Part shown: positions 5,862-40,902 of the stretch, piece by piece
Position numbering within the stretch: position 1 is the stretch's first letter
Layout: every line of letters starts with the position of its first letter
Assembly (NCBI GenBank): GCA_044344255.1
Contig: JBIJDH010000024.1
Coordinates: forward strand, 62,812-126,811
Source of the DNA: Myxococcota bacterium
Lineage (GTDB): Bacteria; Myxococcota_A; UBA796; UBA2385
Reading direction: 5' to 3'
DNA length: 64,000 nt
Made by a program: the position numbers and the translations under genes
The notes under the pieces: generated by a model
The model's database searches: none
The model's input: only the letters and a program-made list of their open reading frames with translations
Told to the model about the DNA's origin: nothing

Positions 5862-5865
5862 CATC

Positions 5866-25953: not shown

Positions 25954-26045
25954 CGGTGACTCCAAGGAGGGGGGCGTTTTCTACCACAGGTCACCCCCTC
26001 ATCGGCACAAGGGCACAATAGAGGGCCGACGCCACCGGATGACCC

Positions 26046-27326
26046 GTGTCCCCCCTCCGCTCCGCCCTCCCCTCTGCCCTGGCCGCCCTCCGCCGCCCCG
26101 GGCCCCGTCGCCTGCTCATCGCCGTCTTCACCGCGATGTACCTTGTGTTCGGGCTATACCGCTCGGGGGCCACCGTCTTCGCCGGCGGCGGGGGCCGCGA
26201 CTACGCGACCTACCACTACGCCGTCCAGGAGGCCGTCGCCGGGGGCGATCCCTACGACACCGCGGCGCTCGGCCTGCGGAGCGCCGCCGAGGGCACGCGC
26301 AAGTCTGTCCACCCCTTCTTCTACCCGCCCCCCTTCCTCTTCTCGATGCTCTGGGCGGCCCCCCTCTCGCTCATGACGGCCTATCGGGTCTTCTGGGCGG
26401 TCAATCAGCTCCTCCTCGTGGGCACGCTCTTCGCCCTCCGGCGCTGGTTCGGGCCCTCGCTGCTCCTGCTCGCCTTCGTCGCCGCCACCTTCAGCCCGAT
26501 CCCCGACAACGCCAAGATGGGGCAGGCCAACCTGCTCGTGCTGCTGCTCGCGGTGGCCGGGCTCGCGCGCGGCAGCGGCGGCCTCGTGGGGGCGGCGGCG
26601 ATGGCCAAGATGTCGCCGGCCCTCTACCTCGTGGGCTGGCTCTCTCGCCGAGAGTGGCGGCCGGTGCTCACCGCAGGGGTCACGGCGATCGGGCTCTCCC
26701 TCCTCGCCCTGCCGCTCGTGCCGCTCGAGACCCAGCGGATGTTCTACCTCGACATCCTGCCGGGCTTCTCCTCGGGCGACTACCACGGCTTGAAGGTGAA
26801 GATCACCCTGCCCGCCAACCACTCGATCCCCGATCTCTGGAACCAGCTCTGGCCGGGGCCGAGCGGGCACGCCCTCTCCCCCGCCGCCCAGCGCGCCTCC
26901 TCGCTCTCAAGCCTCGGCCTGCTCGGCCTGCTCGGCCTCGTGGGCGCGCGCACCCGCGGGGACGCCGACCCGCTCCGCCTCGCCAACCTGATGGGCGCGC
27001 TCACCGTGCTCATGCTGATCACGCCGGTCTACACCTACGAGCACCACCTCACGCTGCTGATCCTGCCCGTCGTCGCCCTCGGCGCCGCCATCGAGCGGGG
27101 GCGCCTCGGCCGGGGCTGGGTCGTGCTGGTCCTCGTGGCCTACTTCTTCGTCGCCTGGCCCCTCGCTTGGCTCCGCGGCCTCCAAGACCTCGTGCCCCTC
27201 CTCGACTGGCCCCTCCAGGAGAGCAAGTTCCTGGGGGCGCTCCTGCTCGGCCTCGCGAACGCGCGGGTGGCCTGGAGCCCGGCCCCGCCCGCCGCCGCCG
27301 ATCAGCCCGCCCGCGCCGAGAGCTGA
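26046..27326 (+). CDS. GT87 (DUF2029) family membrane glycosyltransferase
   Basis: RDYATYH, PFFYPPPF, GQANL, AKMSP and YEHHL motifs; many TM helices. Confidence 0.85.
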   Translation: MSPLRSALPSALAALRRPGPRRLLIAVFTAMYLVFGLYRSGATVFAGGGGRDYATYHYAVQEAVAGGDPYDTAALGLRSAAEGTRKSVHPFFYPPPFLFSMLWAAPLSLMTAYRVFWAVNQLLLVGTLFALRRWFGPSLLLLAFVAATFSPIPDNAKMGQANLLVLLLAVAGLARGSGGLVGAAAMAKMSPALYLVGWLSRREWRPVLTAGVTAIGLSLLALPLVPLETQRMFYLDILPGFSSGDYHGLKVKITLPANHSIPDLWNQLWPGPSGHALSPAAQRASSLSSLGLLGLLGLVGARTRGDADPLRLANLMGALTVLMLITPVYTYEHHLTLLILPVVALGAAIERGRLGRGWVVLVLVAYFFVAWPLAWLRGLQDLVPLLDWPLQESKFLGALLLGLANARVAWSPAPPAAADQPARAES

Positions 27327-27400
27327 TCGAGCAGGCCGACGAGGATGTGGGCCTGGTACCAGGCGTCGTAGTCGGCGCGGTGCTTCTGACCGAGGTCTTC
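27254..27400 (+). repeat. 147-bp direct repeat, left copy
   Basis: Identical to 32017-32163 except A27319 versus C32082. Confidence 0.97.
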
Positions 27401-27440
27401 AGACGGTCAGCGCCTTACAGGAGGCCCGCTGGGAGAGGCC
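27302..27440 (-). pseudogene. 3' remnant of the DEDDh exonuclease gene with an internal deletion
   Basis: 27302-27400 matches the exonuclease 3' end. 27404-27440 matches 32388-32424 with 3 mismatches. Confidence 0.8.
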
Positions 27441-27768
27441 ATGACCATGAGCACGGGCATCAACACTGGGTCGCCGGATTCCAGCGGGAAGAGGCGTTTC
27501 GGTGGACGTCCGCGGGGGAGGTCGGCAAGACCAGCTCAACCGACGGATGCCTGAGCCTTGACTCCCGACCTCCACCCCGACTGGACATCGCGGGCGGCAT
27601 CACGGTGTCACCGAGAAGAGGTCGAAGAGGTCGATGGTGCCCCAGTCGGAGATGCCGGGCAGAATTGGCATGAGGATTTCGCCGAGGTGGGTGAAGTTGG
27701 TGCCCTGAAGGTCGCTGTTGAAGAAGGCGATCATGGCGGCGTTCTGCCAGGGCGCGAGGCCGGGAGCC

Positions 27769-28260
27769 TCAGCCGCTTGTCGGGTAGTCGCACTCAGCAT
27801 ACGCTCCCGGCTCGGAGCACTCCTCCGGGCTTCGCCTCGTGAGATCGCACCACTCCTCCACGCCCATGTCGCCGCTGAAGACCCTGTCCAGCGCCGTCAG
27901 GTAGCGGCAGTCCCTTTCGCGAGTACACATCGCCACCGCACAGGGGTCATAATCGTCGCACTCGGCAGTAGGATCGGAGCGGATTTCCTCCCAGGCGACA
28001 ATTCCATTCGCCACGCAGGTGTCGTAGTAATCTCTAAATTCCTCGAGAGAATACCCATCGTCACACAGCCGAGAGCTCGCACAGTCCACGGCCGCATCCA
28101 CCTCATCGTACCGATAGATGTCGAAGGTGTCGCACTCATCTTCGCCCGGGTAACCAGCCGCGCAGTCCTCATACGCCTCTTCGGGTCTGTCTCCTTTGTC
28201 CGAGCATGCGCAGAGCAGTAGGATGGCGAGCAACCCCAGGCGCTGGACGACGACCCACAT
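27769..28260 (-). CDS. acidic Cys-rich lipoprotein
   Basis: RLGLLAILLLCA-C lipobox, about 12 Cys in the mature part, lower GC. Confidence 0.7.
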   Translation of the reverse strand: MWVVVQRLGLLAILLLCACSDKGDRPEEAYEDCAAGYPGEDECDTFDIYRYDEVDAAVDCASSRLCDDGYSLEEFRDYYDTCVANGIVAWEEIRSDPTAECDDYDPCAVAMCTRERDCRYLTALDRVFSGDMGVEEWCDLTRRSPEECSEPGAYAECDYPTSG

Positions 28261-28299
28261 GTTACTGCTGAAGGCGAATGCGGTTGTGGTGCTTGGAGG

Positions 28300-28530
28300 G
28301 GCAGCCGACTTCCTCGCGAGGTCTTTCATGGTGCGGTAACCGCTGGTAAGATAGGCGGTTCCGAGCTCCACCTTCACGCCATCGACGATGTGGGGGTCGC
28401 TCTGCCCGCCGACATCGCCGGAGGCCTCGAAGAGATCGACCTTGAGGTGGGAGAGGGGGCGGAGCTGCGCCGCGAGGGAGACACCGGCCGGTCCGGCGCC
28501 GATGATGGCGATGCGGAGGTTCTGGGTCAT
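28300..28530 (-). pseudogene. N-terminal fragment of an FAD-dependent oxidoreductase
   Basis: MTQNLRIAIIGAGPAGVS..LFEASGDVGG..VELGTAY gives only the dinucleotide-binding start; no remainder follows. Confidence 0.75.
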
Positions 28531-28705
28531 GCGGTCGCTTAACCCGGCGCATTCAGATGCACCGATGCGCCTCTCGAGTCTCTTTGACTTTTCGGTCTTC
28601 GGCTCTCCCGCCCAGGCGGGCGTCCTCACGGAGCTCGAAGGGCCGGAGCACAAGGTCGATGAGGGCCAGGTGATCGACGTGGAGGAGCCGCCGCAGCGCT
28701 GAGCC

Positions 28706-30571
28706 TCAGGCGGGGAGGGTGGGAGCGACGAGGGCGGCGAGGTCGGGGCGGCCGCGTGTGAGGGCAGCCTCGTGCCAAAGAGAGCGTTCGGCGGCAGGGA
28801 GGGTAGCGAGCACCTCAGTCGACCATAAGTCGTGGCCGTCTATGATCAGTCGCCACCCGGTGCCCGGCTTCAAATACGCATCGACGGTGTTCGCCAAGCT
28901 GGAGCTATGCGAGATGAGCGTTCGATAGGCCGCCGCCGCGGCTGCACAATTTTCACGACTGAGAAAGGTAATTTCGAAAATCTTAAATAGAAGCGATAGC
29001 ACCAGCAGTTTGCGGATTACATCTGTGCCGACCCCGGGTAGGGTCTTGATCAGATTGCTTGCGATTGATTGTTGTTGAGGGGATGTCGTCCAGAAGATCG
29101 ATCCCAGGAAGTTGGCGAGGACCATGCCGATGTCGAAGCGCTGGATGAGCTCGTCGTACGAGCTGTTCGCACGGACCCACTCGCCGAACAAGATGAGTGC
29201 GAATACCTGACAAGCTGCAGTTGTAACACACGGCTGGCGCAAATATAGTTCGTTTGCCAGCTCAGCGGCTCGAGTAGGGCTGTCCTCCATTTCGTTCGCG
29301 ATTGCTTTGAACAGGTGGCTATCCACCAGAATCTCGTCTCCTTCCCACATCAAGGCTTCATGAAACCAAGATTGGTGACCTTCGGGGGTTCCTTGGCGAG
29401 CCAGAAGCTCTGACCGGGTGTGCCAGAAGCGCAAGAACCGAATGAATACCTTTGGCGCCTGGTCCGGACGTTTCATGGCTCGTGCGATACGCCAGAGCGG
29501 ATCGCGCAGCTCGTAGAAGCTCTCTCGCCCTACGCTGTGGCTCTGCACGAGGCCATCGCGCCTAAGGAAGCGGAGCTGACCGGAGACGGTGCCCTGCGTC
29601 GAGAAGGTGGCATCGACGAGCTCACTCACGGTCAGCGGTCGCCAGCTCTCGCTCAGGCGCTCAAGCAGGGCCTGCTGGCCGGGGGCGCGGGCGCGGATCT
29701 GCTCCTGGAAGTAGGGGGTGAGCTCATCCCCGAGCTGGTAGAAGGCTGTCTCCAGCTCGTCGAGGCTCTCCCTCGTCAGGTAGGGGAAGAGCAGGGCCAT
29801 CCCACGGGGAGAGCCGCCGATCAGGTGGTGAATTGCTCGCACACGGGCGAGGCCAAGCGGGCTCTGGAGGCGCTCGGCGAGGCCGGGGTCTGGCCGGTCC
29901 TCTGCCAGGGTGAGGAGCATGTCTCGACACCCCTCCGGGCTGAGCGGCCCGACGGGCTCCTCGATCCACATGCGGTAGAAGGGCCGGTCCCGATTGTGGA
30001 AGTCGTCGCCGGTGGCCTGGGCGGTGGCGAGCACGCTCCAGCGCTGTTCGGTGACGATGCCGCGCAGGCGCCACTGCTCCTCAGTGCTCATCGCCGAGAG
30101 GATGCGGTCGAGGTTCTCGAGGCCGATGAGGAAGGGCCTCGCCTGGAGACGCCCCTCGATGAGGCGGAGAGCCCGCTCGACGGCCTCGGCGCGGTCACTG
30201 CCGCGAAGGAGTGCCACCTGACTCGCCGCGGTGGGCAGCCCCTCCACCTCGGGTAGGCGGGAGAGCAGGCGGGCGAGGAGGTCGAGCAGGCTGCCCACAT
30301 GCTCCTCCTCATCGAGCGCGGCGACCACCGGGGCCTGGGGCAATGCCGCCGCCCGGATGCGCGCCAGGAGCACCGCGAAGAGGTGGCTCTTCCCGCTGCC
30401 GCGGGCTCCAACGAGGACGACGTGCCGGGCCCCCCCTTCGGCGAGGGTGCCGACCAGGCCCTCCACGACGCCGTCGACCAGCGACCCGCGCTCGACCAGG
30501 CGGCGCTCCAGGAGCTCGGTGGGCAACAGATGGGGGGAGAAGCGGGAAAACTGGGGGCGGGTCAGAGACAT
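28706..30571 (-). CDS. P-loop ATPase (STAND/AAA-like) with winged-helix and divergent C-terminal helical region
   Basis: Walker A GARGSGKSH, Walker B LIGLENLD, GGSPRG, and wHTH LTVSELVDATFSTQGTVSGQLRFLRRDGLV..GRESFYEL. Confidence 0.85.
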   Translation of the reverse strand: MSLTRPQFSRFSPHLLPTELLERRLVERGSLVDGVVEGLVGTLAEGGARHVVLVGARGSGKSHLFAVLLARIRAAALPQAPVVAALDEEEHVGSLLDLLARLLSRLPEVEGLPTAASQVALLRGSDRAEAVERALRLIEGRLQARPFLIGLENLDRILSAMSTEEQWRLRGIVTEQRWSVLATAQATGDDFHNRDRPFYRMWIEEPVGPLSPEGCRDMLLTLAEDRPDPGLAERLQSPLGLARVRAIHHLIGGSPRGMALLFPYLTRESLDELETAFYQLGDELTPYFQEQIRARAPGQQALLERLSESWRPLTVSELVDATFSTQGTVSGQLRFLRRDGLVQSHSVGRESFYELRDPLWRIARAMKRPDQAPKVFIRFLRFWHTRSELLARQGTPEGHQSWFHEALMWEGDEILVDSHLFKAIANEMEDSPTRAAELANELYLRQPCVTTAACQVFALILFGEWVRANSSYDELIQRFDIGMVLANFLGSIFWTTSPQQQSIASNLIKTLPGVGTDVIRKLLVLSLLFKIFEITFLSRENCAAAAAAYRTLISHSSSLANTVDAYLKPGTGWRLIIDGHDLWSTEVLATLPAAERSLWHEAALTRGRPDLAALVAPTLPA

Positions 30572-31734
30572 CGGTGGAGCTTCCAGAAGCGACGAAGGCA
30601 GTCGAGGCGGAAGAGCCAGCGCTCATTGCGCCGATCGAGGTACTGGTCGCGCCGCAGCCACTGGAGGACCTCGACGAGCCGGTCTCCAGGGAACAACCGA
30701 CGAAGCTCGGTGATGGACTGGCCTGTCGGATGAAGGCAGAGGTGGTCGAGCAGATGCAACGCGAGGTCATGATCCTCGGCGCTCAGCGTGCGCTTCATCC
30801 GCTGGACGTAGTGCTCGAGCTCCAGCGGATCCTGATCATTGTCGAGGAGGGCCTCGAGTGCCTGATCGGCGGCGTGGCGGGTGTAGCGCCGCTCCATGCG
30901 CACCCGCTCGGCGATGTGCTGCAGCACGAAGGGGTGCCCTTCGGAGATACGCGAGAGGTGCTGCGCCAGATCGGCCGCGTTGGCGGACTCCTTCTCGAAG
31001 CTCGCCACGAGGCGCCCGGCCAGCTCCAGCGCTCCGCCGGGCTCGAGGACCGGGAGGACCTCCCGGGCCATCTTGTTGTCGGGGTCATTCGTGTACCCGC
31101 GGGCCTGCAGCCCGCGGATGATCTCGTGCAGCCCGATCGAGCCGGTGTAGACGAGGCGCAGCCGGGGCCAGCGCTGGGCGTCGCGCAGGAAGTCGAGGAG
31201 GGCGGTGACCTCGCGGTCCCCCCGCACGGTGACGAGGCCGTCGAGGAAGATGGTGAGCTCATCCCAGACGAGGACGACGATCCGCTCTTTTTCGTCAGCC
31301 CACTTCTGTAGCCCCTCGAAGGCCTTGTCGAGGACGGGCTGCCACTCCGCCCCCGGCAGGCGGAGCGCCAGCTTCACCCCCTTGAGCTCCACGCCCCCGG
31401 CGAGGCCCTCGACGTACCGGGCGAAGGGGAGGTAGCGCCGGAGGAAGCCACCCGTCAGCCCCTCGATCTGCTCCAACACGGCCTGCACGAAGTCCGGCAG
31501 GCCGCGCGGCACCTTCTCCAAGCTCGCGTAGCGGAGCGCGAAGTGGGCAGGCTGGTGCGCCGGATCGGCCATGCGGCGCCAGAGGCTCGTCTTGCCCATC
31601 CGGCGCGGGGCGGTGAGCACGAGGGAGCGCGTCTCCAGGATCTCCCGGAAGCGGCGAATCAGCTCATCCCGGCCGACGACCTGCTCCGGGCTGAGATCGC
31701 CGCCGGGGTTCGGGGTCAACGCGGTGGTGGACAT
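30562..31734 (-). CDS. P-loop ATPase (ATPase_2/AAA_16-like) with C-terminal winged-helix
   Basis: VVGRD, Walker A APRRMGKTS, Walker B VLVWDE, YTGSIGL and GHPF motifs; overlaps the downstream ATPase by 10 nt. Confidence 0.88.
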   Translation of the reverse strand: MSTTALTPNPGGDLSPEQVVGRDELIRRFREILETRSLVLTAPRRMGKTSLWRRMADPAHQPAHFALRYASLEKVPRGLPDFVQAVLEQIEGLTGGFLRRYLPFARYVEGLAGGVELKGVKLALRLPGAEWQPVLDKAFEGLQKWADEKERIVVLVWDELTIFLDGLVTVRGDREVTALLDFLRDAQRWPRLRLVYTGSIGLHEIIRGLQARGYTNDPDNKMAREVLPVLEPGGALELAGRLVASFEKESANAADLAQHLSRISEGHPFVLQHIAERVRMERRYTRHAADQALEALLDNDQDPLELEHYVQRMKRTLSAEDHDLALHLLDHLCLHPTGQSITELRRLFPGDRLVEVLQWLRRDQYLDRRNERWLFRLDCLRRFWKLHRCL

Positions 31735-31781
31735 CGTCGTTCCAAGGGGGGACCGGGAAGGCCCTCGACCCATGCTGGAAT

Positions 31782-31810
31782 CAACATATGTCAAAAACAA
31801 CATATGTCAA
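31782..31810 (-). promoter_or_regulatory. tandem 13-bp repeat forming a likely promoter/operator for the ATPase pair
   Basis: CAACATATGTCAA at 31782-31794 and 31798-31810, each with an ACATATGT palindrome. Minus strand reads TTGACA-N16-TATGTT. Confidence 0.65.
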
Positions 31811-31899
31811 CATCGACATGCATATCCCCCACCCCGCCGCAGCAGGATGCACCGAGGTGCTTCGCCGATCTCCTCGCATTCCCCGCCGGGGCCGTCGTG

Positions 31900-32016
31900 C
31901 ATGGCCTCCAGTCGGGCGTCCTGTAGCCGTCGAAGCAGGCGCTGCGCGGCGTTGATGGCCGGGTCGAGGGCCTCCACCCGGTCGAGGCAGGCGTCGATCT
32001 CCAGGGGGTCCACCCC
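31900..32016 (-). pseudogene. amidase N-terminal scrap
   Basis: VDPLEIDACLDRVEALDPAINA resembles the amidase N-terminus; compare LVEAQLARVDAYNPGLNA in the intact amidase at 43375-44916. Confidence 0.55.
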
Positions 32017-32163
32017 CGCGAACGCGCGGGTGGCCTGGAGCCCGGCCCCGCCCGCCGCCGCCGATCAGCCCGCCCGCGCCGCGAGCTGATCGAGCAGGCC
32101 GACGAGGATGTGGGCCTGGTACCAGGCGTCGTAGTCGGCGCGGTGCTTCTGACCGAGGTCTTC
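32017..32163 (+). repeat. 147-bp direct repeat, right copy
   Basis: Matches 27254-27400 with one mismatch. Confidence 0.97.
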
Positions 32164-32700
32164 GGCGGGGAGCCGCAGCCGCTCGGCCAGCACCTCCTTG
32201 TTGCTGTCGAACCAGTGCACCCCGAGGGCGCCGGTCGCCATCGCCTTCGTGCAGAGCGCCTTGTAGCCGAAGGGGTTCGGGAGCTCCTCGGCGGCGTAGG
32301 CGTAGCTCACGAAGCTCCAGTCAAAGGGCGCGTTGTGGCCCACGAAGGAGGGCTTCGTGCGGGGCTTCGTCCGTGCCCGCACCCAGGCGGTCAGCGCCTC
32401 GCAGAAGGCCCGCTGGGAGAGGCCCTCGGCAGCCAGCTTGCCCTGGTCGAGGCCGTGGATCGCGGCGGCGCGGGCGTCGAAGCGGGGCGCCCCGGGACGG
32501 AGCTCGGCGTAGAAGGGGTTGCCCTCGATGACGAGGTGGCCCTGCTCGTCGGGGGAGACCACCACCGCGCCGAGCGACACCATGTCGTAGAGCCCTGGAA
32601 CGGGGCCGTTGCACTCGATGTCGATGCAGAAGTACGTTGTGCGGGACTCCCGATGGCGGGAGGAGGGGGCGGCGGGGTGGGAGACAGGCAGGCCGGTCAT
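32065..32700 (-). CDS. DEDDh 3'-5' exonuclease (RNase T / RNase AS-like)
   Basis: CIDIECNG (ExoI), VGHNAPFDW (ExoII) and HRADYDA (ExoIII) motifs. Confidence 0.88.
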   Translation of the reverse strand: MTGLPVSHPAAPSSRHRESRTTYFCIDIECNGPVPGLYDMVSLGAVVVSPDEQGHLVIEGNPFYAELRPGAPRFDARAAAIHGLDQGKLAAEGLSQRAFCEALTAWVRARTKPRTKPSFVGHNAPFDWSFVSYAYAAEELPNPFGYKALCTKAMATGALGVHWFDSNKEVLAERLRLPAEDLGQKHRADYDAWYQAHILVGLLDQLAARAG

Positions 32701-33951
32701 GACGAGCTCCGAGCGAGGCTGGGCGATGGGCCCGGTCGGGGGCCCGCGTCGCCGCGGCTTATCCAGCCGCCGCGGAGCCCGCGCCAGCGTCAAGTCGAAG
32801 AGGCCCTCCGTAAGCTCATCCTCCTGAGCTACCTCCTCTCCATCCCCGGCCTGCTGCTCAGCACCTGGCTCCTGCTCGGCGCGGGCGTGCTCCGCCACGG
32901 CGGGGCCACCGCGGTGGCCGCGGGCGCGGCGCTGCTCCTCCTCCTGCCGGCGATGGGCGTGGCCAGCCTCTTCCCGCGGCGGCTCCACGGCCTCGGCCTC
33001 GGCCTCCTGCTCTGGCCGCTGGGGCTGCTGATCGGCTTCCCGCTCTACTTCCCCGCCGAGCGCGGCCCGGCCCTCGTCGCCGGGCTGAGCGTGGCCGCAG
33101 GCGCCCTCCAGCTCCACCCGGACCCCTCGATCGCCCTCGCCCTCGACCGCCTGCTCCCCGCCGTTGAGGGCAGCCGCCCGCCCGCCGTCCTGGCCGAGTC
33201 CACGCAGGTCGAGCCCCTGGCCCTCGCCACCGCCGCCCCGGAGCCCGCCGCCACGAGCGGCCGCCTCGGCGAGGGCGAAGACGAGGTGGTGCTGCCCTAC
33301 GAGGGCTCCGGCAGCTCGCTCCTCGTGCAGATCAGCCTCGAGCAGGGCAGCCGCAGCCAGGACGTGGTGATGATCTTCGACACCGGGGCCTCGATCACCA
33401 CCCTCGACACCGAGACCCTGCGCAGCCTCGGCGTCCGCGTGCCGGCCGACGCCCCCGTCCTCGAGGTCCACACCGCCGGCGGCGACCGCCAGACCCGCCT
33501 CGTCCGCCTCGACCGCCTCTGGATCGGCGGCTTCGAGGTGGAGGGGGTCACGGTGGGCGTCTGCGACGACTGTCGGATGGGCCGCACGGTGGGCCTGCTC
33601 GGCCTCAACGTGTCGAGCCGCTTCCTCGTCACGGTCGATCAACAAGAGAAGGAGCTCGTGCTGCAGCCCCGCGCGGGCGTGCTCGACGCCACCGCCGACG
33701 TCTCGCCCTGGGTCGACCTCTCCGCCACCGCCACCCGCTGGGAGGGCGGCCGCACCGAGGTGGAGGTGCGGGTGCTGAACAAGAGCGACCACCCCATCTC
33801 CACCGTCGGGGTGCGCATCGGCTGCGGGGCCGGCTTCCACACCGACGTCGGCCCGATCGCGCCCGGCGCCGAGGCCGAGAAGCCCGTCGCCCTCCCCCTC
33901 GGCACCGACTGCGAGGCCTACACCGTGGAGCTCGACCGGGCGCGATGGTGA
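32653..33951 (+). CDS. membrane-anchored retropepsin-like aspartyl protease (start uncertain)
   Basis: N-terminal TM helices; MIFDTGASITT, VHTAGG and GLLGLN motifs. Confidence 0.8.
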   Translation: MAGGGGGGVGDRQAGHDELRARLGDGPGRGPASPRLIQPPRSPRQRQVEEALRKLILLSYLLSIPGLLLSTWLLLGAGVLRHGGATAVAAGAALLLLLPAMGVASLFPRRLHGLGLGLLLWPLGLLIGFPLYFPAERGPALVAGLSVAAGALQLHPDPSIALALDRLLPAVEGSRPPAVLAESTQVEPLALATAAPEPAATSGRLGEGEDEVVLPYEGSGSSLLVQISLEQGSRSQDVVMIFDTGASITTLDTETLRSLGVRVPADAPVLEVHTAGGDRQTRLVRLDRLWIGGFEVEGVTVGVCDDCRMGRTVGLLGLNVSSRFLVTVDQQEKELVLQPRAGVLDATADVSPWVDLSATATRWEGGRTEVEVRVLNKSDHPISTVGVRIGCGAGFHTDVGPIAPGAEAEKPVALPLGTDCEAYTVELDRARW

Positions 33952-33967: not shown

Positions 33968-34381
33968 GTGAGCGCGGGCCGACCGCCGCCGAACCCCTTC
34001 TGGGTGCTCGGCCTGCCGGCCACGGCCAGCCGCGTCGAGCTCGAGCGGGCCGGGCAGCGCCTCCTCGCCCAGCTCGCCGTCGGCGCGCGGTCGGCGCGGT
34101 GGACCGAGACCCCGGGCGGGCCGCTCGAGCGGGACGAGGCCCTCGTCCGCGACGCGCTCGCCCGCCTCCGCGACCCCGAAGCGCGCCTGATCGCCGAGCT
34201 GCTCTACGCTGCCGCCGAGCTGCTCTCCGCTGTCCCAGCGCCTCCCGCTGCTACTCCCGCTGCGCCTCCCGATGCGACTCCCGCTGCGCCTCCCGATGCG
34301 ACTCCCGCTGCGCCTCCCGCTGCGCCCGAACCGGCCGGCCTGACCGGGCTGCACGAGGCCCTCGGCCTCCTCCCGAGCTAG
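33968..34381 (+). CDS. hypothetical protein with J-domain-like start and PAAPPDAT repeats
   Basis: NPFWVLGLPATAS..ELERA; no HPD motif. Confidence 0.65.
   Translation: MSAGRPPPNPFWVLGLPATASRVELERAGQRLLAQLAVGARSARWTETPGGPLERDEALVRDALARLRDPEARLIAELLYAAAELLSAVPAPPAATPAAPPDATPAAPPDATPAAPPAAPEPAGLTGLHEALGLLPS
34238..34326 (+). repeat. 24-bp in-frame tandem repeat (about 3.7 copies)
   Basis: GCGCCTCCCGATGCGACTCCCGCT units. Confidence 0.9.
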
Positions 34382-35872: not shown

Positions 35873-38191
35873 TCACCGGCGCGCGGGGGGCGCCTCGAAC
35901 GTGACCCGCCCGAGCGTGACCGCGCTCCAGGGCGCTGGGCGCGACCACCAGCCGGGTGGGGCGGAGATCGGCAGCCCGTCTGTCTCATCGACGAGGACGG
36001 ACGTGCCGCGCCCGAGGGTGAGGACCACCCGCAGCCCGGCCTCGGGCGGGTCGACCCACAGCAGGCGGCGCGCCCGGCCCGTCCCCTGCACCTCATGGGG
36101 GCCCTCCGCGCCCTCCACCGACAGGACGCGGCTGCCGGGCGCCGGTCGAAAGGCGAGCGCGCGGGCCCCCCGCCGGGAGCGGAGGCGGAGGGCGACGCTG
36201 TCCCCGAGCCAGGCCTCCACCGAGACCTCGGGCGGCAGCACGTCCGCGTCCGGGGCCGGCGCCTCGAAGGCCTCCCCGCCGAAGAGCATCACGTCGGGCG
36301 AGGCGTCGGCGGCCGGGGCGCCGTCGGGGACGAGCTCCGCCAGCCACCCGGCGCGGCGGGCCTCTCCGCTGATCCAGCGCGGGCCGCGCTCATCGGTGAG
36401 GTGGACGAGGTGATAGGGCTGCGGCCAGCGATCCGGGGCCTGCTCCACGAGCGCGACCCCGACGAGCCCGAGCAGCACGAGGCCGAGCAGCAGCGGAAGG
36501 GCCCGGCGACCGGGCGTGAGCGAGGCGGCGCCCGGGAGGCCGAGCAGCGGGCCCACCGCCATCGCCAGCGGCGACAGGCCCACCCCCCAGGCGAGGAGCG
36601 GCAGCGTGGCCCCGAGCAGCGCCGCGAGGGGCACGAGCAGCAGCAGCGCCGGGGGCAGGCTGAGGAGCGCGGTCCCCGCCTCGGGCAGCCCGCGCGGCCA
36701 CCTCAAGCCCGGAGAGCGGGAGGCGCGGGCCCGCAGACCCAAGCACACGAGGCCGAGGGACAGGCCGAGGGCCGGCAGCACGAAGGGATAGGCGGCGCCG
36801 GGCAGGGTGAAGGCCACCCAGAGGGACAGGCCCACCCAGGCGAGGCCGCCGCCGAGCGTTGGCCCGCCGCCCGCCGCCCACCGCCCGCCGAGCGCCGACA
36901 GGGCGAGGGCGGGCCAGAGGCCGAGCAGGCTGAGCAGCGGCCGCAAGACCGCGGCGAGCGGGCTGTCCATCCCCTCGTGGGCCGCCTCCACCGGCGACAG
37001 GGCCGACAGGACCGACAGGGCCCCGTAACAGAGGCCCACGGCCCCCACGGCCGACAGGGGGGCCGAGAGGAGCCCGAAGAGGAGCGGGCCCAGCCGCGGC
37101 CGCGCGGCCAGCAGGGCGAGGAGCCAGAGCACCGCCGCGCTCACCGCGAGGATCGGCATCATCACGGCGTCGAGCACGACGAGGCCGCCCGGCAGGTTGA
37201 AGTAGACCGGGTCGGCCGCGCCGCCCCATCGGTCCGCCGCCGTGCCGGTCGCAGGGGCCGCCGCGGGGCCGGTCGGACGGGAGAGGTCGGCGTCGGCGAG
37301 GCCGAGGGACAGGGACCGGGCCAGGGCGGCCTGGTGCTGGAGCGTGCGCCGATCGAGGCGTTCGGGCCGATCCTCGGAGCTGTGATAGACCCGCAGCCCG
37401 TCGACGAAGGCGAAGTCGAGCCCCGGCACCCCAAACAGCGCCGACAGGTCGGTGTCATTCGGGAGGAGGGAGAAGACCGCCGGACCGAGCGAGCCCGCCC
37501 GCGCGTGGGGCAGCTCGGCGAGGGCCCGCACCAGGGCGCCGCTCCCGGGCCCGGTGTGGAACATCAGCGCCGCCCCGCCCGCGCCCCGCCCCTCAAAGTT
37601 GAGCACGGCCCCCACCGACGACCAGCGGGGGTGCTCCCGCTGAAAGAGGGTCGCGCCGAGCAGCCCGGCCTCCTCCCCGTCGGTGAGCAGCACCACCACG
37701 TCATTCCGGGCGGGGGGCCCGGCGCCGATCGCCCGCGCGGCGGCGAGCACCGCGGCCACCCCCGCCCCGGCGTCGGCCGCGCCCGCGGCGTTGGGCACGC
37801 TGTCGGTGTGCGAGACGAGGAGGAGGGTGTCCCGGCGCTCCACCCCCGCCCGCCGGGCGACGAGGTTGCGCACCCGCCCGCCGAGGAGCAGCCCCCCGCG
37901 CTCGACCATCACCTCCCCCACCTGCTCCTCGACGTCGAAGCCGGCGGCGCGGAGCTCCTCGGCGAGCCCGTCCTGGACGGCCGCGAGGGCCGCCGAGCCC
38001 GTGGGCCGCGGCGCCCCGGCCACCTGCGCGACCGTCCGGTCGAGCGCCGCCGCCGTCTCCGCGTCCACCGCCCCCGACGGCGCGCGGGCGAGGTCGAGCC
38101 CGAGCAGCACGAGCAGCCCGACCCAGCCCGCCCACAGGGTCAGGCCCAGGCGGGGGGCCGCGGACACGGGGGCTTCGCGGGGCGCGGTCAT
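35873..38191 (-). CDS. M28 family membrane metallopeptidase
   Basis: SHTDSV, GAADAGAG, DGEEAGLLGA, NFEGRG, PNDTD and YHS motifs followed by a TM bundle. Confidence 0.92.
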   Translation of the reverse strand: MTAPREAPVSAAPRLGLTLWAGWVGLLVLLGLDLARAPSGAVDAETAAALDRTVAQVAGAPRPTGSAALAAVQDGLAEELRAAGFDVEEQVGEVMVERGGLLLGGRVRNLVARRAGVERRDTLLLVSHTDSVPNAAGAADAGAGVAAVLAAARAIGAGPPARNDVVVLLTDGEEAGLLGATLFQREHPRWSSVGAVLNFEGRGAGGAALMFHTGPGSGALVRALAELPHARAGSLGPAVFSLLPNDTDLSALFGVPGLDFAFVDGLRVYHSSEDRPERLDRRTLQHQAALARSLSLGLADADLSRPTGPAAAPATGTAADRWGGAADPVYFNLPGGLVVLDAVMMPILAVSAAVLWLLALLAARPRLGPLLFGLLSAPLSAVGAVGLCYGALSVLSALSPVEAAHEGMDSPLAAVLRPLLSLLGLWPALALSALGGRWAAGGGPTLGGGLAWVGLSLWVAFTLPGAAYPFVLPALGLSLGLVCLGLRARASRSPGLRWPRGLPEAGTALLSLPPALLLLVPLAALLGATLPLLAWGVGLSPLAMAVGPLLGLPGAASLTPGRRALPLLLGLVLLGLVGVALVEQAPDRWPQPYHLVHLTDERGPRWISGEARRAGWLAELVPDGAPAADASPDVMLFGGEAFEAPAPDADVLPPEVSVEAWLGDSVALRLRSRRGARALAFRPAPGSRVLSVEGAEGPHEVQGTGRARRLLWVDPPEAGLRVVLTLGRGTSVLVDETDGLPISAPPGWWSRPAPWSAVTLGRVTFEAPPARR

Positions 38192-38898
38192 CGGGTGAGG
38201 AGCCGCACCTCACCGGTCTCGGTGTCCACGCTCACGCCCATGAAGCGCCCGCGGGAGCACGTGCCGGTGTTGGCGAGGACCCCGCCCGGCAGCTCCAGGC
38301 GGACGGGGATGTGGGTGTGCCCCATGACCACCACCTGCACGCCCTGCTCCGCCATCAGCGCCTGGGCCGCCCGGCCGTAGGGGCCCGCGGGCCCCTTGTG
38401 GAGGCGGCCCTTCACGGTCACGTCTCGGTCTTCGAGCACCTCCGCCACCGCCCGGAGCCCCACCGCGCGGGCCTGACCGGTGAACCAGGTGCCCGCGGCC
38501 GACAGGCGCGGCGCCCGCCCGATGACCGGGTCGTAGGCGTCTCCGTGGACGAAGAGCGCGCGGCAGCCGGGCTCTCCGAGGGTGAGCGACCGCGCGGCTC
38601 CCAGCACCTCGTGGGTGATGGGGTCATGGTTGCCGCAGATCCAGCGGTACTGCGGCTCTTCGAAGCGCTGGGTGAGGCGCGCGGTGCGCTCCCGGGCCAG
38701 GGCGAGGGCCCGCCGCGCCGAGGCTGGCCCGGGGAGAGGCCCGTGGTCGGTCTGGTAGATGTCCCCGAGGAGCACGAGGGCGTCGTGCTGGGCCTCGAGG
38801 ACGTCCAGCCACCGCAAGAAGTCGCCCTCCGCGTGCCGAAAGGTGTCCGCGTGGGCGCGGTCGCCGATGTGGAGGTCTGACACAGCGGCGATGCGCAT
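38188..38898 (-). CDS. calcineurin-like metallophosphoesterase (LpxH-like)
   Basis: SDLH, LGD, GNHD, VHGD and MGHTH motifs. Confidence 0.9.
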   Translation of the reverse strand: MRIAAVSDLHIGDRAHADTFRHAEGDFLRWLDVLEAQHDALVLLGDIYQTDHGPLPGPASARRALALARERTARLTQRFEEPQYRWICGNHDPITHEVLGAARSLTLGEPGCRALFVHGDAYDPVIGRAPRLSAAGTWFTGQARAVGLRAVAEVLEDRDVTVKGRLHKGPAGPYGRAAQALMAEQGVQVVVMGHTHIPVRLELPGGVLANTGTCSRGRFMGVSVDTETGEVRLLTR

Positions 38899-38915
38899 GG
38901 CGGGCTCGGCGAGCG

Positions 38916-38948
38916 GGGGCAGACACGGGGCAGACACGGGGCAGACAC
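38916..38948. repeat. 11-bp tandem repeat GGGGCAGACAC x3
   Basis: Directly visible between the RNA ligase and phosphoesterase genes. Confidence 0.9.
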
Positions 38949-38962
38949 GGGGGCCGGGGAGG

Positions 38963-39937
38963 CTACTTCCGAAGGAGGTAGCCCTCCCCGTGGAGCTTGA
39001 GGATGACACGGCCGACCCGGTCATCCCAGCGCTCTCGGATGGGCCGTACCACGAAGCCCTCCCGCACGTGGGCGCCGTCGGCGATCACCGTCGGCCCCTC
39101 CGCGAGGTGGCTCAGCCCCATCGACCAGGGCCCCCGATAGAGCCGCGGCACCACCGGGAGCTCCCAGACCGCGAGCAGCCGGTCGGCCTCGTCTACGTCC
39201 AGCCAGCGCCGGCTGCGCACGTCGAGCACGTCAAAGACCGCCCCCTTCACCATCCCCTGCCCGAGGCCATAGCGGAGGTCCTGCACGGCGCCGTAGGCCT
39301 CGAAGTACACGGCGTAGGGGGTGTCCCGCAGCTTCTCCTCGAGCCTCCAGCTCCGGGCGACCCGGGCCCAGAGGTTGTTGCCGTCCGGCGCCTTGAAGAG
39401 GTTGCGCGAGCCCACGTGCAGGCGCCCCTCGTGCCACACGGCGCGGCCGTTGGCGCCGTGCACCTTCTCGGTGAGCACCACCTCCTCCCCCTCCACGAGC
39501 ACCTCCGGCCAGCGCCGCACCCCCTCGATGTCATAGACGGGCAGCACACCGGGGTCGGGCATGCCCTCCTCTTCGACGCCGGGGTCGGGTGGATCGTACT
39601 TCTCGATCCCGAGGCGCTCCCGAACGTCCTCCCCCTCGGCCCAGCCGGGATCGGCGGGGAGGAGCAGCCCCATCGAGAAGATGCCCCGCAGCCGCAGGGC
39701 CTTGATCCGGGCCCAGCCGTCCTTGTTGGCCTGCTTGGCCAGGAAGGCGAACATTGGCCGGCTCACGTGCAGGAGGGCGTCGACCGGGATGTAGACCGCG
39801 AGGTCGCCCTCGTGGAGCTCGCCCGTGCGGATGATGCAGGGGTACCCACCGTGCACGCGGGTGATGGACAGGCTGTCCGCGTTCGGGTGGGGGTTGATCT
39901 CGCCGACGCGGACCGTGTGGATGTGGAACTCGCTCAT
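38963..39937 (-). CDS. ATP-dependent RNA ligase, DRB0094-like family
   Basis: N-terminal HPNADSL..RIKALRLRGIFSMG module, motif I TEKVHGAN, FEAYG, FDV, REGFVVRP and ILK. Confidence 0.9.
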   Translation of the reverse strand: MSEFHIHTVRVGEINPHPNADSLSITRVHGGYPCIIRTGELHEGDLAVYIPVDALLHVSRPMFAFLAKQANKDGWARIKALRLRGIFSMGLLLPADPGWAEGEDVRERLGIEKYDPPDPGVEEEGMPDPGVLPVYDIEGVRRWPEVLVEGEEVVLTEKVHGANGRAVWHEGRLHVGSRNLFKAPDGNNLWARVARSWRLEEKLRDTPYAVYFEAYGAVQDLRYGLGQGMVKGAVFDVLDVRSRRWLDVDEADRLLAVWELPVVPRLYRGPWSMGLSHLAEGPTVIADGAHVREGFVVRPIRERWDDRVGRVILKLHGEGYLLRK

Positions 39938-40308: not shown

Positions 40309-40331
40309 TGTATCCATAGGGGAGAGGTGTC

Positions 40332-40787: not shown

Positions 40788-40902
40788 ACGACCTTGTCGT
40801 CTACGACGCCTGTGTCCTGTACCCGAGCCCACTGCGCGACTTCCTCATCCGGGTCGCCGTCGCGGAGCTGGTTCGGGCTCGGTGGAGCGAGCGGATCCTC
40901 AA
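40784..40902 (+). pseudogene. truncated PIN-domain toxin
   Basis: ATGA overlap. VVYDACVLYPSPLRDFLIRVA..ARWSERIL is a typical PIN N-terminus, and similarity stops where the convergent gene ends. Confidence 0.85.

What the first reader, a model, noticed from the sequence alone, without database searches (positions are those of the whole stretch)
27254..32163. Integrase-free island inserted at the overlap of two convergent genes, duplicating 147 bp so both survive
Seen: 27254-27400 and 32017-32163 differ at one base. The repeat contains the overlapping 3' ends of GT87 (+) and the exonuclease (-). The left copy completes GT87 and the right copy completes the exonuclease. No recombinase, tRNA or IS ends lie nearby. 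Inference: a homology-mediated cargo slot that could excise as a 4763-bp circle or amplify by RecA recombination.
Basis: partly seen in the sequence, partly recalled or inferred. Interest (0 to 1): 0.8.

Follow-up and report, generated by a model that had tools for sequence, protein, structure and literature searches.

The report
Integrase-free gene islet flanked by duplicated gene ends
A 4.6-kb piece of foreign DNA carrying a widespread two-gene ATPase module sits between two tail-to-tail genes of an uncultured lake bacterium, and a 147-base copy of both gene ends on each side keeps both genes whole without any recombinase gene nearby.

Summary
27254-27400 and 32017-32163 differ at one base. 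The left copy completes a GT87 glycosyltransferase gene and the right copy completes a DEDDh exonuclease gene. No tRNA, Rfam RNA or recombinase domain was found nearby.

The 4.6-kb insert has lower GC and is a mosaic:
- a 40-nt relic of the exonuclease gene
- a lipoprotein-like ORF
- a 5' fragment of an FAD-oxidoreductase gene
- a two-gene ATPase operon with its own operator-like repeats
- a 139-nt fragment of another host-like gene, joined to the repeat at a 14-of-16-nt microhomology

The ATPase pair is a conserved module found across phyla. The second gene lies within about 1.2 kb downstream in 75 of 80 loci; the other 5 contigs end within 407 nt.

In Floridaenema cyanobacteria the same module is flanked by a 113-134-nt duplication of the neighbouring gene's 3' end, and six related genomes show the empty site. 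At least six other recombinase-free islets in this genome have 106-200-nt flanking duplications of gene ends or gene-internal segments.

Best reading (0.55): host-mediated, recombinase-independent insertion-duplication. Excision or amplification was not seen; contig depth is about one island per chromosome. Rivals are an orphaned att-flanked element, duplication before insertion, and a circle-plus-empty-site assembly.

The parts
26046..27326 (+). GT87-family glycosyltransferase gene (426 aa). Its last 24 codons lie in the left repeat copy.
   Evidence: Pfam PF09594, 1.1e-20. Orthologues in relatives align up to residues 421-423 of 426, so the tail is native.
27254..27400 (.). Left copy of the 147-nt direct repeat: GT87 tail plus a relic exonuclease tail.
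   Evidence: one mismatch to 32017-32163. In run X1 the repeat is a 147-nt contig at depth 25.3, about twice the flanks.
27302..27400 (-). Relic of the last 32 exonuclease codons plus stop. It is cut off from any gene body.
   Evidence: Translation. tblastn match of 31 residues at 94%.
27401..27440 (-). 40-nt relic of an internal exonuclease segment, equal to 32385-32424 at 90%. The 221 nt that lie between in the real gene are missing.
   Evidence: family D6; E 2.6e-7 genome-wide, the only such match. It translates as GLSQRASCKALTV against GLSQRAFCEALTA.
27441..27768 (.). Non-coding or gene-fragment stretch at the left end of the insert. It diverges about 4% between strains.
   Evidence: No ORF with a family match. 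Run X17 shows 15 substitutions in 27401-27770.
27769..28260 (-). Cys-rich acidic ORF with a lipoprotein-like signal (…LLLCACS…). It is fused in frame, by chance, to the fragment upstream.
   Evidence: Translations. No Pfam or PHROGs family. The lipobox call is my own reading of the sequence.
28299..28653 (-). 5' fragment (about 120 codons) of an FAD/NAD-binding oxidoreductase gene. A fuller paralogue lies on contig C70.
   Evidence: Pfam NAD_binding_8, 1.5e-10, on residues 50-114 only. 82% nt and 72% aa identity to G000:C70:46242-46511.
28706..30571 (-). Second cargo gene: AAA_16 ATPase plus ArsR-type winged helix (621 aa). It lacks the C-terminal third seen in its nearest homologues.
   Evidence: Pfam AAA_16 and HTH_5. 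Homologues of 880-934 aa, often with TPR domains. Alignment to proteins of 927 and 934 aa ends near residues 480-553.
30562..31803 (-). First cargo gene: ATPase_2/STAND-like AAA+ ATPase with a C-terminal winged helix. The probable start is 31734 (390 aa).
   Evidence: homologues of about 390 aa. AlphaFold model with pLDDT 85. Best PDB matches are 2qen and 2fna, then Orc1/Cdc6 and NLR proteins. Atlas record starts at residue 24.
31783..31810 (-). Two operator-like repeats (TTGACATATGTT, 16 nt apart) upstream of the first cargo gene.
   Evidence: Related 16-nt-spaced repeats (TTGACGTAYRT and variants) are visible by eye in most of the 76 other loci printed; I did not tally them.
31894..32032 (-). 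139-nt fragment, 86% identical to the 3' region of a gene at G000:C18:302918-303056. Its last 19 nt lie inside the right repeat, giving the microhomology junction CGCGAA.GCGC.GGTG.
   Evidence: 17 of 19 positions match inside the repeat. My estimate of chance is about 2e-7, from base composition.
32017..32163 (.). Right copy of the 147-nt direct repeat: a relic GT87 tail plus the real exonuclease tail.
   Evidence: A 6239-nt contig of run X3 runs from 27547 to 33785 without a difference.
32065..32700 (-). DEDDh 3'-5' exonuclease gene (211 aa). It is divergent from an aspartyl-protease-domain gene in all relatives examined.
   Evidence: Orthologues at 56-74% identity in 35 of 40 relatives; 38 of 41 genomes including G000 have any match. 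The protease neighbour is conserved in 19 of 19 loci.

Best explanation
This is a real chromosomal islet. About 4.6 kb of horizontally acquired DNA sits in what used to be a 25-nt overlap between the 3' ends of a GT87 gene and an exonuclease gene.

Mechanism proposed. The DNA was not placed by an element-encoded recombinase. It entered by host-mediated insertion-duplication. The incoming DNA became linked to a copy of the local segment (GT87 tail plus the exonuclease 3' part) and recombined with the chromosome's own copy. This could have been a single Campbell-type crossover of a circularised molecule, or an equivalent break-repair or template-switch event. Either route leaves that segment on both sides of the insert.

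History inferred.
- The duplicated segment was at first at least 408 nt long, running from 27254 to the equivalent of 32424.
- The left copy later lost 221 nt.
- One junction was made at a 14-of-16-nt microhomology.
- An insertion at this site without the duplication would have truncated at least one gene. Only the duplicated form keeps both genes, which is why this form is what survives.
- Selection now holds the GT87 half of the left copy and the exonuclease half of the right copy.
- The unselected halves are still identical in this strain, but the left relic has diverged in another strain. That points to gene conversion or a recent origin in this lineage.

Cargo. It is a conserved, self-regulated pair of STAND/ORC-like ATPases of unknown role. 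A conflict or defence role is a guess.

Consequences. The repeats now allow loss, spread to island-free kin through flanking homology, or amplification by host recombination.

Shown: the repeat, the gene completion, the relic, the microhomology, the mosaic, the lack of recombinase genes, the single-copy depth, and the recurrence of this architecture elsewhere. Inferred: the order of events, the mechanism, and any present-day mobility.
For: - The repeat and the two completed genes.
- The 40-nt exonuclease relic directly after the left copy, the only such match in the genome (E 2.6e-7). The duplicated piece therefore once reached into the exonuclease gene body.
- Homology of the C18-like fragment runs 19 nt (17 of 19) into the right repeat, the signature of an illegitimate join at a microhomology.
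- The insert is a patchwork of truncated genes, not a tidy element.
- No recombinase, tRNA or RNA family.
- Depth in X1 is flank 13.4, repeat 25.3, island 12, flank 9.6. The island is held by 20 runs from 18 studies (2 marked as a possible source).
- In run X17, a strain about 1% different, a contig carries the island's left part behind a left copy with 6 substitutions and an in-frame 18-nt insertion.
- The cargo operon recurs. The second gene lies within 600 nt in 73 of 80 loci.
- Among 59 loci with enough flank, 5 (3 lineages) have flanking direct repeats that score above every one of about 350 mismatched-pair controls.
- In Floridaenema the 113-134-nt duplication holds the last 39 codons of the convergent neighbour. 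Six related genomes (four close, at 87-94% nt identity, and two more distant) have one copy of the segment and no cassette. Both duplicated copies there look host-derived.
- Six more lower-GC islets in this genome have 106-200-nt duplications of gene ends or gene-internal segments, and no recombinase family among 39 ORFs.
Against: - No mechanism was observed. Every step after 'there is a duplication' is inferred.
- The two copies differ at 1 of 147 positions while the adjacent relic differs at 4 of 40 (Fisher p = 0.008). A single duplication followed by uniform decay does not predict this. A Campbell crossover with a diverged donor would make the two copies differ. An extra step (gene conversion) is needed.
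- The Floridaenema insert is clean, while the window's insert is a mosaic, so the two may not share a mechanism.
- Most cassette loci have no flanking repeat: 54 of 59, and 55 of 64.
- In control pseudo-cassettes, repeats of 60 nt or more within 2.5 kb occurred in 2 of 37 loci. Loose flanking repeats are therefore not rare.
- A recombinase acting in trans cannot be excluded.
- k-mer contigs cannot separate the tandem order from a circle plus an empty site.
Confidence: 0.55

Rival explanations
1. The repeats are attL and attR of a site-specific integrative element that carried replacement 3' ends for its target. Its integrase was later deleted, or it acts in trans from another element (a CIME-like or satellite island).
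For: - Direct repeats of tens to about 150 nt that restore the 3' end of a target gene are typical of integrase-borne islands (established knowledge, recalled).
- The same cargo is found with such repeats next to gene ends in four lineages.
- An HTH_17 (excisionase-type fold) ORF lies 8 kb away at 40320-40784.
Against: - No integrase family among the 33 distinct ORFs tested within about 13-15 kb on either side.
- In Floridaenema, Myxococcota locus L185 and locus L215 the repeats enclose only the two ATPase genes, so there is no room for an integrase.
- Six further islets in this genome also lack one among 39 ORFs.
- Both Floridaenema copies look host-derived rather than element-borne.
- The relic reaches beyond the identity block, and the far junction shows microhomology to an unrelated gene fragment. 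An att core does not predict either.
Confidence: 0.18
2. A local tandem duplication of the GT87-tail/exonuclease-3' segment came first. It created a dispensable joint between two essential gene ends. Foreign DNA and gene scraps then accumulated in that neutral joint through several separate events.
For: - The duplicated segment was once at least 408 nt.
- The insert is a mosaic with at least four breakpoints and a truncated cargo gene. That fits repeated small events at a tolerated site.
Against: - No exonuclease-derived sequence remains next to the right copy, where the original duplication joint should be. That position holds the C18-like fragment with its microhomology.
- In Floridaenema a clean cassette lies exactly between the two copies, which needs insertion and duplication together.
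Confidence: 0.12
3. Assembly artefact. The chromosome has a single GT87-repeat-exonuclease site, and the 4.6 kb plus one repeat copy is a separate 4763-bp circular molecule (or belongs to another strain) that the assembler threaded into the contig.
For: - The four junction types (flank>repeat, repeat>island, island>repeat, repeat>flank) and the doubled repeat depth are the same for both layouts.
- The genome is a metagenome bin of 83 contigs.
- The cargo has iteron-like repeats and ORC-like ATPases.
Against: - Island and flank depths are about 1:1 in three runs.
- The cargo protein lies on contigs up to 127,261 nt in 6 assemblies.
- The copies differ at one base in the assembly.
- The same architecture is unambiguous where the copies are 4-9% apart: Floridaenema, L185, and the other islets of this genome.
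Confidence: 0.08

Closest known systems
Microcin H47 genomic island of Escherichia coli (Azpiroz & Lavina 2017, PMC5426353; abstract and introduction read)
   Same: A small island flanked by extensive imperfect direct repeats. It encodes no recombinase, and its mobility is ascribed to host functions.
   Different: H47 excision and re-integration were shown by PCR and were RecA-independent; nothing of the kind is shown here. H47 is 13 kb with four homology blocks. Here a single 147-nt block holds the ends of two genes. The phylum and the cargo also differ.
Campbell-type single-crossover integration (insertion-duplication, as with suicide plasmids, F-primes and specialised transducing DNA; recalled, no call)
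   Same: A circular DNA that carries a piece of the chromosome integrates by host homologous recombination and leaves that piece as a direct repeat on both sides. Genes cut by the piece's ends survive if the piece contains their ends.
   Different: This is known mainly as a laboratory tool or for large episomes. Here it would be a natural route for small recombinase-free islets. How the chromosomal piece first joined the cargo is unknown.
Integrase-borne islands and their orphaned derivatives (CIMEs of streptococci; tycheposon remnants of Prochlorococcus; recalled, no call)
   Same: Direct repeats that duplicate the end of the target gene. The derivatives lack recombination genes.
   Different: Those repeats are att sites with a fixed crossover point and usually a tRNA or conserved target. 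Here there is no integrase, no tRNA, a relic that extends past the repeat, and a microhomology junction.
Illegitimate and homology-facilitated illegitimate recombination of foreign DNA (only search listings and one abstract start seen: 10.1101/2023.11.22.568220; the rest recalled)
   Same: Foreign DNA joined at microhomologies, with or without a homologous anchor on one side.
   Different: The reported outcomes are mostly short patches or insertions with deletions. A 100-400-nt target duplication is not, to my recollection, the described outcome. I did not search for it specifically.
STAND/AAA_16 and ATPase_2 (archaeal-type AAA+) NTPases with winged helix and TPR domains
   Same: First gene: the fold matches 2qen and 2fna, Orc1/Cdc6 and NLR proteins. 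Second gene: AAA_16 plus HTH_5, with TPR domains in homologues.
   Different: No effector domain was found. No PADLOC system model matches beyond weak P-loop hits. The strictly paired operon with operator repeats has no name in any library searched.

Membership tests
Integrase-mediated genomic island / ICE / IME | A tyrosine or serine recombinase gene in or next to the element | tested here: not met
   No recombinase Pfam family among the 33 distinct ORFs tested between 13.3 and 47.6 kb. No PHROGs hit for the island proteins.
Integrase-mediated genomic island / ICE / IME | Flanking direct repeats (attL/attR) that restore the target | tested here: met
   A 147-nt repeat in which each copy completes one gene.
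Integrase-mediated genomic island / ICE / IME | Insertion at a tRNA, tmRNA or other recognised att target | tested here: not met
   No tRNA or tmRNA in the window. No Rfam match in 26000-33000.
IS / composite transposon | Terminal inverted repeats, a transposase, and a short fixed-length target duplication | tested here: not met
   No transposase family. No inverted repeat at the island ends among the 25 longest pairs; the only notable pair, 27772-27796 with 29194-29218, is internal. The duplication is 147 nt.
Recombinase-free island with host-mediated mobility (H47 type) | Long imperfect flanking direct repeats and no recombinase gene | tested here: met
Recombinase-free island with host-mediated mobility (H47 type) | Demonstrated excision to a circle plus an empty site | tested here: inconclusive
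   No joint 27400>32164 in the 4 runs laid. One weak joint, 27162>32065, appears in X17 (depth 40.5, side 29, below the tool's own caution limits). Contigs drop rare forms, and raw reads were not available.
Campbell-type insertion-duplication | The duplicated segment is host sequence present once at the empty site | tested here: inconclusive
   For this window no empty site was found. Relatives do not have the two genes adjacent. For the same cargo in Floridaenema the feature is met: six related genomes carry one copy.
Known anti-phage defence systems (PADLOC 2.0) | Cargo proteins match a system model | tested here: not met
   Only weak partial hits (Csa3 HTH 1.5e-4, mad8 1.1e-3, HerA P-loop) for the 621-aa protein, and none for the 413-aa protein.
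STAND / AAA+ ATPase_2 superfamily (cargo) | P-loop NTPase core followed by helical and winged-helix domains | tested here: met
   Pfam AAA_16 and HTH_5. Model with pLDDT 85. Foldseek matches 2qen at 2.5e-9 and 2fna at 6.9e-9, then Orc1/Cdc6, CED-4 and NLR proteins. Atlas clusters ATPase_2, AAA_35 and nSTAND.

The most novel reading that the evidence does not exclude
Small recombinase-free gene modules, here a self-regulated pair of STAND/ORC-like ATPases, may spread between and within bacterial phyla by a so far undescribed insertion route. That route would duplicate 60-400 nt of the target, typically the end of a flanking gene, so the module can land inside or against essential gene ends without harm. 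This genome alone would hold at least seven such islets. The ATPase pair, with its iteron-like repeats, might itself take part in the process, for example as a small replicon that integrates through captured host sequence.
Probability: 0.2. Interest if true: 0.8.

Novelty: new variant of a known kind. Interest (0 to 1): 0.6.

Why it matters
Genomic islands are usually found and explained through their integrases. Islets without one are mostly written off as decayed remnants.

Here the flanking duplication has a clear consequence: it rescues two overlapping genes. The same architecture recurs with the same cargo in cyanobacteria, where empty sites prove insertion plus duplication, and with other cargo at several sites of this genome.

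If a host-driven insertion-duplication route is common, three things follow:
- It would explain how small defence-like modules enter tightly packed or overlapping gene ends.
- It would give a sequence signature (a relic gene end on the far side of an islet) for finding such events.
- It would make the islets unstable by design, since the repeats allow loss, transfer by flanking homology, and copy-number change.

The cargo itself is a widespread, unnamed two-gene ATPase module with a conserved operator array. It is worth a functional test.

Tried and rejected
- Empty site in relatives. 40 genomes of the same family or order were searched with each protein. The exonuclease keeps its protease neighbour, but the GT87 orthologue is always on another contig. 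One metagenome scan with GT87 gave 79 loci at no more than 63% identity, none with the exonuclease. No genome of the same genus is held.

- Laid runs. Only k-mer contigs were available. No contig bridges the left copy into GT87. The joints 26945>32991, 27088>32038 and 27093>32988 have sides of 20-22 nt and lie in GC-rich look-alike stretches, so I treat them as spurious. The X17 joint 27162>32065 (depth 40.5, side 29) would fit an island-free strain: 20.2 for the island plus 40.5 comes close to 63.6 for the shared exonuclease contig. It is below the tool's caution limits, so it stays a hint only.

- Empty-site test for Myxococcota locus L185. Relatives are at most 58% identical in the maf-like gene and share no flanks.

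- The 20-nt repeat at locus L149. It scores 20 against a control maximum of 15. The cassette sits at one shared locus in related Nostocales, and no empty site was found. Left open.

- The 81-nt repeat at locus L169. It looks to me like a dispersed cyanobacterial hairpin repeat and lies 2.3 kb from the cassette. Rejected.

- Conserved terminal motifs or inverted repeats at cassette ends across lineages. None seen.

- Phage origin. No PHROGs hit.

- Known defence system. No PADLOC model.

- A recombinase in the lower-GC stretch at 40-43 kb. 6 ORFs gave no family.

- Earlier notes of this scan. One note on another piece of this genome, not relevant; none by sequence.

- Literature. Searches for recombinase-free islands with long target duplications gave one relevant paper, on the H47 island. 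I did not find the ATPase pair, or natural insertion-duplication of islets, described. Three searches of this library do not show that it is not in print.

Full report
**1. The observation**

The window holds one long direct repeat near the reported place: 27251-27400 and 32014-32163, 150 nt at 99% identity, spaced 4763 nt apart. The alignment shows unbroken identity from 27254/32017 to 27400/32163 with one mismatch (27319 A, 32082 C) and no similarity outside it. With the window's base composition, one such match has a probability near 1e-75, against about 2e9 position pairs. In the 8.18-Mb, 83-contig assembly that contains the window (G000, contig C54) these are the only two copies.

26046-27326(+) is a GT87 glycosyltransferase (Pfam 1.1e-20). 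32065-32700(-) is a DEDDh exonuclease (Rv2179c-like 4.3e-8; PADLOC exonuclease model 8.3e-38). The GT87 stop is at 27324-27326 and the exonuclease stop, in the left copy's register, at 27302-27304. The tails therefore overlap by 25 nt. The repeat is exactly the last 24 GT87 codons plus the last 32 exonuclease codons and its stop. Orthologues of both proteins in relatives align to within a few residues of these ends, so both tails are native. Both copies carry the two tails joined in the same way, so the ancestral state was GT87><exonuclease with overlapping ends.

**2. What lies between the copies**

GC falls from 70-76% in the flanks to 55-68% inside. From left to right the insert holds:

- 27401-27440: a 40-nt stretch 90% identical to 32385-32424 inside the exonuclease gene. 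It is the only such match in the genome (E 2.6e-7) and reads GLSQRASCKALTV against GLSQRAFCEALTA. The 221 nt that separate this stretch from the tail in the real gene are missing. The left copy is thus the remnant of a longer duplicate, at least 408 nt, that later lost 221 nt.
- 27441-27768: a stretch without a recognisable gene.
- 27769-28260(-): a Cys-rich ORF with a lipoprotein-like signal.
- 28299-28653(-): the first 120 or so codons of an FAD/NAD-binding oxidoreductase. It is 82% nt and 72% aa identical to a gene on contig C70.
- 28706-30571(-): a 621-aa AAA_16 ATPase with an ArsR-type winged helix.
- 30562-31803(-): a 413-aa ATPase (probable start 31734) that overlaps the previous gene by 10 nt.
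- 31783-31810: two 12-nt repeats spaced 16 nt apart.
- 31894-32032: a 139-nt fragment, 86% identical to the 3' region of a gene at C18:302918-303056.

This last homology does not stop at the island boundary (32013). It runs 19 nt into the right repeat, matching 17 of 19 positions. The GT87 tail and the C18-like fragment share CGCGAA.GCGC.GGTG (14 of 16) at exactly the point where they are joined. That is the mark of an illegitimate join at a microhomology.

The 621-aa protein aligns with its nearest homologues (927 and 934 aa) only to residues 480-553, so its C-terminal third is missing or replaced. The insert is therefore a patchwork with several breakpoints, not a tidy element.

**3. No mobility genes**

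- No tRNA or tmRNA in the 64 kb.
- No Rfam match at E <= 0.1 in 26000-33000.
- No recombinase or transposase family among the 33 distinct ORFs tested between 13.3 and 47.6 kb.
- No PHROGs family for the island proteins.
- The nearest faintly suggestive item is an HTH_17 ORF at 40320-40784, inside a lower-GC stretch whose other 6 ORFs have no family.

**4. Is the tandem layout real?**

Twenty public runs from 18 studies of lake or fresh water hold at least 63% of the sampled words of 26800-32600. Two of them may be the source of the assembly. Four were laid. All are k-mer contigs, so none can bridge 147 nt.

- X1: the left flank contig ends 30 nt into the repeat (depth 13.4). The repeat is a separate 147-nt contig (depth 25.3). 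The island contig covers 27371-32046 (depth 12). The right flank starts at 32134 (depth 9.6).
- X3: one 6239-nt contig runs from 27547 to 33785 without a difference.

These data fit two repeat copies and one island per chromosome. They fit equally well a free 4763-bp circle at one copy per cell beside an empty site, because both layouts have the same four junctions.

Several points favour integration:

- The depth ratio is 1:1 in three runs.
- The cargo protein is present on contigs up to 127 kb in 6 assemblies.
- The two copies differ at one base.
- The same architecture is unambiguous elsewhere, where the copies are 4-9% apart (section 6).

I put the artefact or episome reading at 0.08.

**5. 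Strain variation**

X17 holds a strain about 1% different in coding flanks. One of its contigs covers 27264-28104. It has no difference in 27264-27295. It then carries an in-frame 18-nt insertion at 27296-27301 and 6 substitutions in 27306-27370. It has 15 substitutions in 27401-27770 and 1 in 27771-28104. X17's exonuclease contig (32065-32430) differs at 1 position.

In that strain the left relic has therefore drifted away from the functional tail. In the window's strain the unselected 74 nt (27327-27400) are identical to the right copy, while the adjacent 40-nt relic differs at 4 positions (1 of 147 against 4 of 40, Fisher p = 0.008). One possibility is that the 147 nt were recently homogenised by gene conversion, bounded by the 221-nt deletion. 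The other is that the 40-nt patch was already diverged when it arrived. I cannot tell which, and this remains unexplained.

X17 also gives a joint 27162>32065 at depth 40.5. Together with island depth 20.2 this adds up to about the 63.6 of the shared exonuclease contig. That would fit an island-free strain with a different GT87 tail. Its shorter side is only 29 nt at 90% likeness, so it is only a hint.

**6. The cargo and its other homes**

The two ATPases form a conserved pair.

- Homologues of the 413-aa protein are few in the protein collection (19 at E <= 1e-3). Three share contig lengths with homologues of the 621-aa protein.
- A scan of one genome per species with an alignment of 15 sequences found 303 relatives. 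The 80 kept come from Myxococcota, many Cyanobacteria, Planctomycetota, Gemmatimonadota, Verrucomicrobiota and others.
- In 73 of 80 loci a homologue of the second gene starts within 600 nt downstream. In 2 more it starts about 0.7 and 1.2 kb downstream. In the other 5 the contig ends within 407 nt.
- By eye, most of the 76 other loci printed carry two to four repeats spaced 16 nt apart (TTGACGTAYRT and variants) just upstream of the first gene. I did not tally them. The window has its own variant, and so does a diverged paralogous pair at C18:515339-517542. The module thus brings its own control region, most simply an operator array for its winged-helix protein.
- The first protein folds with confidence (pLDDT 85). 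It matches archaeal AAA+ ATPases 2qen and 2fna, then Orc1/Cdc6 and NLR/STAND proteins.
- No nuclease, recombinase or other effector domain was found. No PADLOC model fits.

The function is unknown. The patchy spread among complex bacteria suggests a conflict or regulatory module, which is inference.

**7. The same architecture elsewhere**

I compared 540 nt upstream with 500 nt downstream of the pair in 59 loci that had enough flank. Five loci score far above all of about 350 mismatched-pair controls (control maximum 15): L185 (115), L144 (101.5), L146 (100.5), L147 (95.5) and L149 (20). A sixth, L215, has a 66-nt repeat cut by the contig end.

- L144, L146 and L147 are three Floridaenema species. 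A 113-134-nt segment, 91-96% identical between its two copies, flanks only the promoter and the two genes. The right copy is the last 39 codons, plus 16 nt, of a convergent 344-aa gene.
- Four closely related genomes (87-94% nt identity) and two more distant ones have the neighbouring genes with a single copy of the segment and no cassette. For example, L144 1566-6019 maps to L248 6566-10993 and L144 9987-11146 maps to L248 10861-12001, and these overlap by the 133-nt segment.
- Both duplicated copies resemble the host's single copy; the left one has decayed. This is insertion with duplication of host sequence, proven by empty sites.
- In L215 the right copy lies in the last 46 or so codons of a convergent 585-aa gene.
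- In L185 (a Myxococcota genome) the 130-nt repeat holds the first 18 codons and 75 upstream nt of a maf-like gene. The far copy carries a stop.

Limits of this evidence:

- Most loci have no such repeat: 54 of 59.
- In control pseudo-cassettes placed in the flanks, repeats of 60 nt or more within 2.5 kb occurred in 2 of 37 loci.
- The weight therefore rests on the tight placement and on the gene-end content, not on counts.

**8. Other islets in this genome**

A self-comparison of G000 lists many direct repeats. Among those 100-370 nt long and 1-10 kb apart, I picked 17 by eye and then looked closely at 10. Six enclose lower-GC DNA (0.59-0.67, against 0.70-0.76 outside). In four of them the repeat is the end of a flanking gene; in the other two it lies inside a gene or was not placed relative to one:

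- C2:135486/137591 (106 nt; tail of a sigma-54 response regulator; FG-GAP cargo)
- C74:80462/85510 (200 nt; tail of a radical-SAM gene; histidine kinase plus cyclase cargo)
- C74:232184/235909 (137 nt; 5' part of a Cas3-like helicase; CotH and WYL cargo)
- C38:5521/6983 (165 nt; 5' end of an Eco57I-like gene)
- C70:325779/327965 (165 nt, from inside a 316-aa ORF; PLD-nuclease cargo)
- C15:128/6962 (121 nt; DUF4062 and Schlafen-like cargo)

None of the 39 ORFs tested there has a recombinase family. The copies are 90-97% identical, so these are not assembly ambiguities. The window's islet is one of a set.

**9. How it most likely came about**

Any plain insertion into a 25-nt overlap of two converging genes truncates at least one of them. 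The form that survives is the one in which the ends are duplicated. The mechanism must create a duplication of 100-400 nt of host sequence without an element-encoded enzyme.

The simplest known process that does this is a single crossover between the chromosome and a circular, or circularised, DNA that carries a copy of the local segment. This is Campbell-type insertion-duplication. The microhomology junction would be the point where cargo and segment were first joined. The relic that runs into the exonuclease body would be the far end of that segment. A one-step break-repair or template-switch event with the same outcome is equally allowed by the data.

I give this family of host-mediated routes 0.55. 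The rivals are:

- an orphaned att-flanked element: 0.18
- a duplication that came before the inserts: 0.12
- an artefact or episome: 0.08

The remainder is unassigned.

Present-day excision, transfer or amplification through the repeats is plausible. A recombinase-free E. coli island with long imperfect repeats excises by an unknown RecA-independent host route (PMC5426353, abstract and introduction read). It is not shown here.

**10. Verdict**

It is unproven on circles and amplification, and too narrow in calling the site a slot.

The finding is a new variant of a known kind, the recombinase-free islet with long flanking repeats. It gains interest from three things:

- the clear selective logic of the duplication
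- the conserved, unnamed cargo
- its recurrence with proven empty sites in another phylum and at several sites of this genome

Noticed in passing
window 28706-31810 (-) and loci L138-L217: The two ATPase genes form a module conserved across phyla. In most of the 76 other loci printed, an array of 2-4 repeats spaced 16 nt apart (TTGACGTAYRT and lineage-specific variants) is visible by eye upstream of the first gene (not tallied). The repeats look like operators or iterons. The module has no name in Pfam, NCBIfam, PADLOC or PHROGs.
   Followed up: partly
L144:5886-6019 and 9987-10119; L146; L147; empty sites L248-L253: In three Floridaenema species the module lies between two copies of a 113-134-nt segment that contains the last 39 codons of a convergent 344-aa gene. 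Six related genomes have one copy of the segment and no module.
   Followed up: yes
L185:9631-9760 and 14110-14239: In a Myxococcota genome the module is flanked by a 130-nt repeat (95% identical) made of the first 18 codons and 75 upstream nt of a maf-like gene. The second gene's stop codon straddles the junction (T|GA). The same is seen at L149 (T|AA) and, if the repeat is read 15 nt longer, at L144.
   Followed up: partly
G000 contigs C2:135486-137696, C74:80462-85709, C74:232184-236045, C38:5521-7147, C70:325779-328127, C15:128-7082: Six further lower-GC islets flanked by 106-200-nt direct repeats of gene ends or gene-internal segments. Cargo includes a PLD nuclease, DUF4062 and Schlafen-like proteins, CotH plus WYL, and a kinase plus cyclase. 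No recombinase family among 39 ORFs tested.
   Followed up: partly
G000:C18:515339-517542: A second, diverged copy of the ATPase pair (31% and 27% identity) with its own 16-nt-spaced repeats (TTGTTGTACAGC). It has no flanking direct repeat.
   Followed up: partly
window 27772-27796 and 29194-29218: A 25-nt inverted repeat pair (88% complementary) inside the island. It encloses the lipoprotein-like ORF, the FAD-gene fragment and the 3' end of the 621-aa ATPase gene. It may mark a secondary insertion that truncated that gene.
   Followed up: no
window 38191-40114 (-) and 40320-43050: A metallophosphatase and an RNA ligase (RNA_ligase plus PHA02142 OB fold) lie side by side. They are followed by an HTH_17 ORF and about 2.5 kb of 63-67% GC DNA whose ORFs have no family.
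   Followed up: partly
window 45892-47559 (-): A second GT87-family gene (Pfam 3.2e-26) 18 kb from the first. tblastn shows only 28% identity between the two.
   Followed up: no
window 34226-34336: Seven overlapping in-register copies (start-to-start spacing 12 nt) of a 39-nt stretch that encodes a Pro/Ala/Thr-rich repeat (…AAPPDATPAAPPDAT…), inside an ORF at 33968-34381(+) with no family.
   Followed up: no
window 62001-64000 and 4001-8000: Other low-GC stretches (53-57% and 65-68%, against about 73% overall). They may be further acquired DNA.
   Followed up: no
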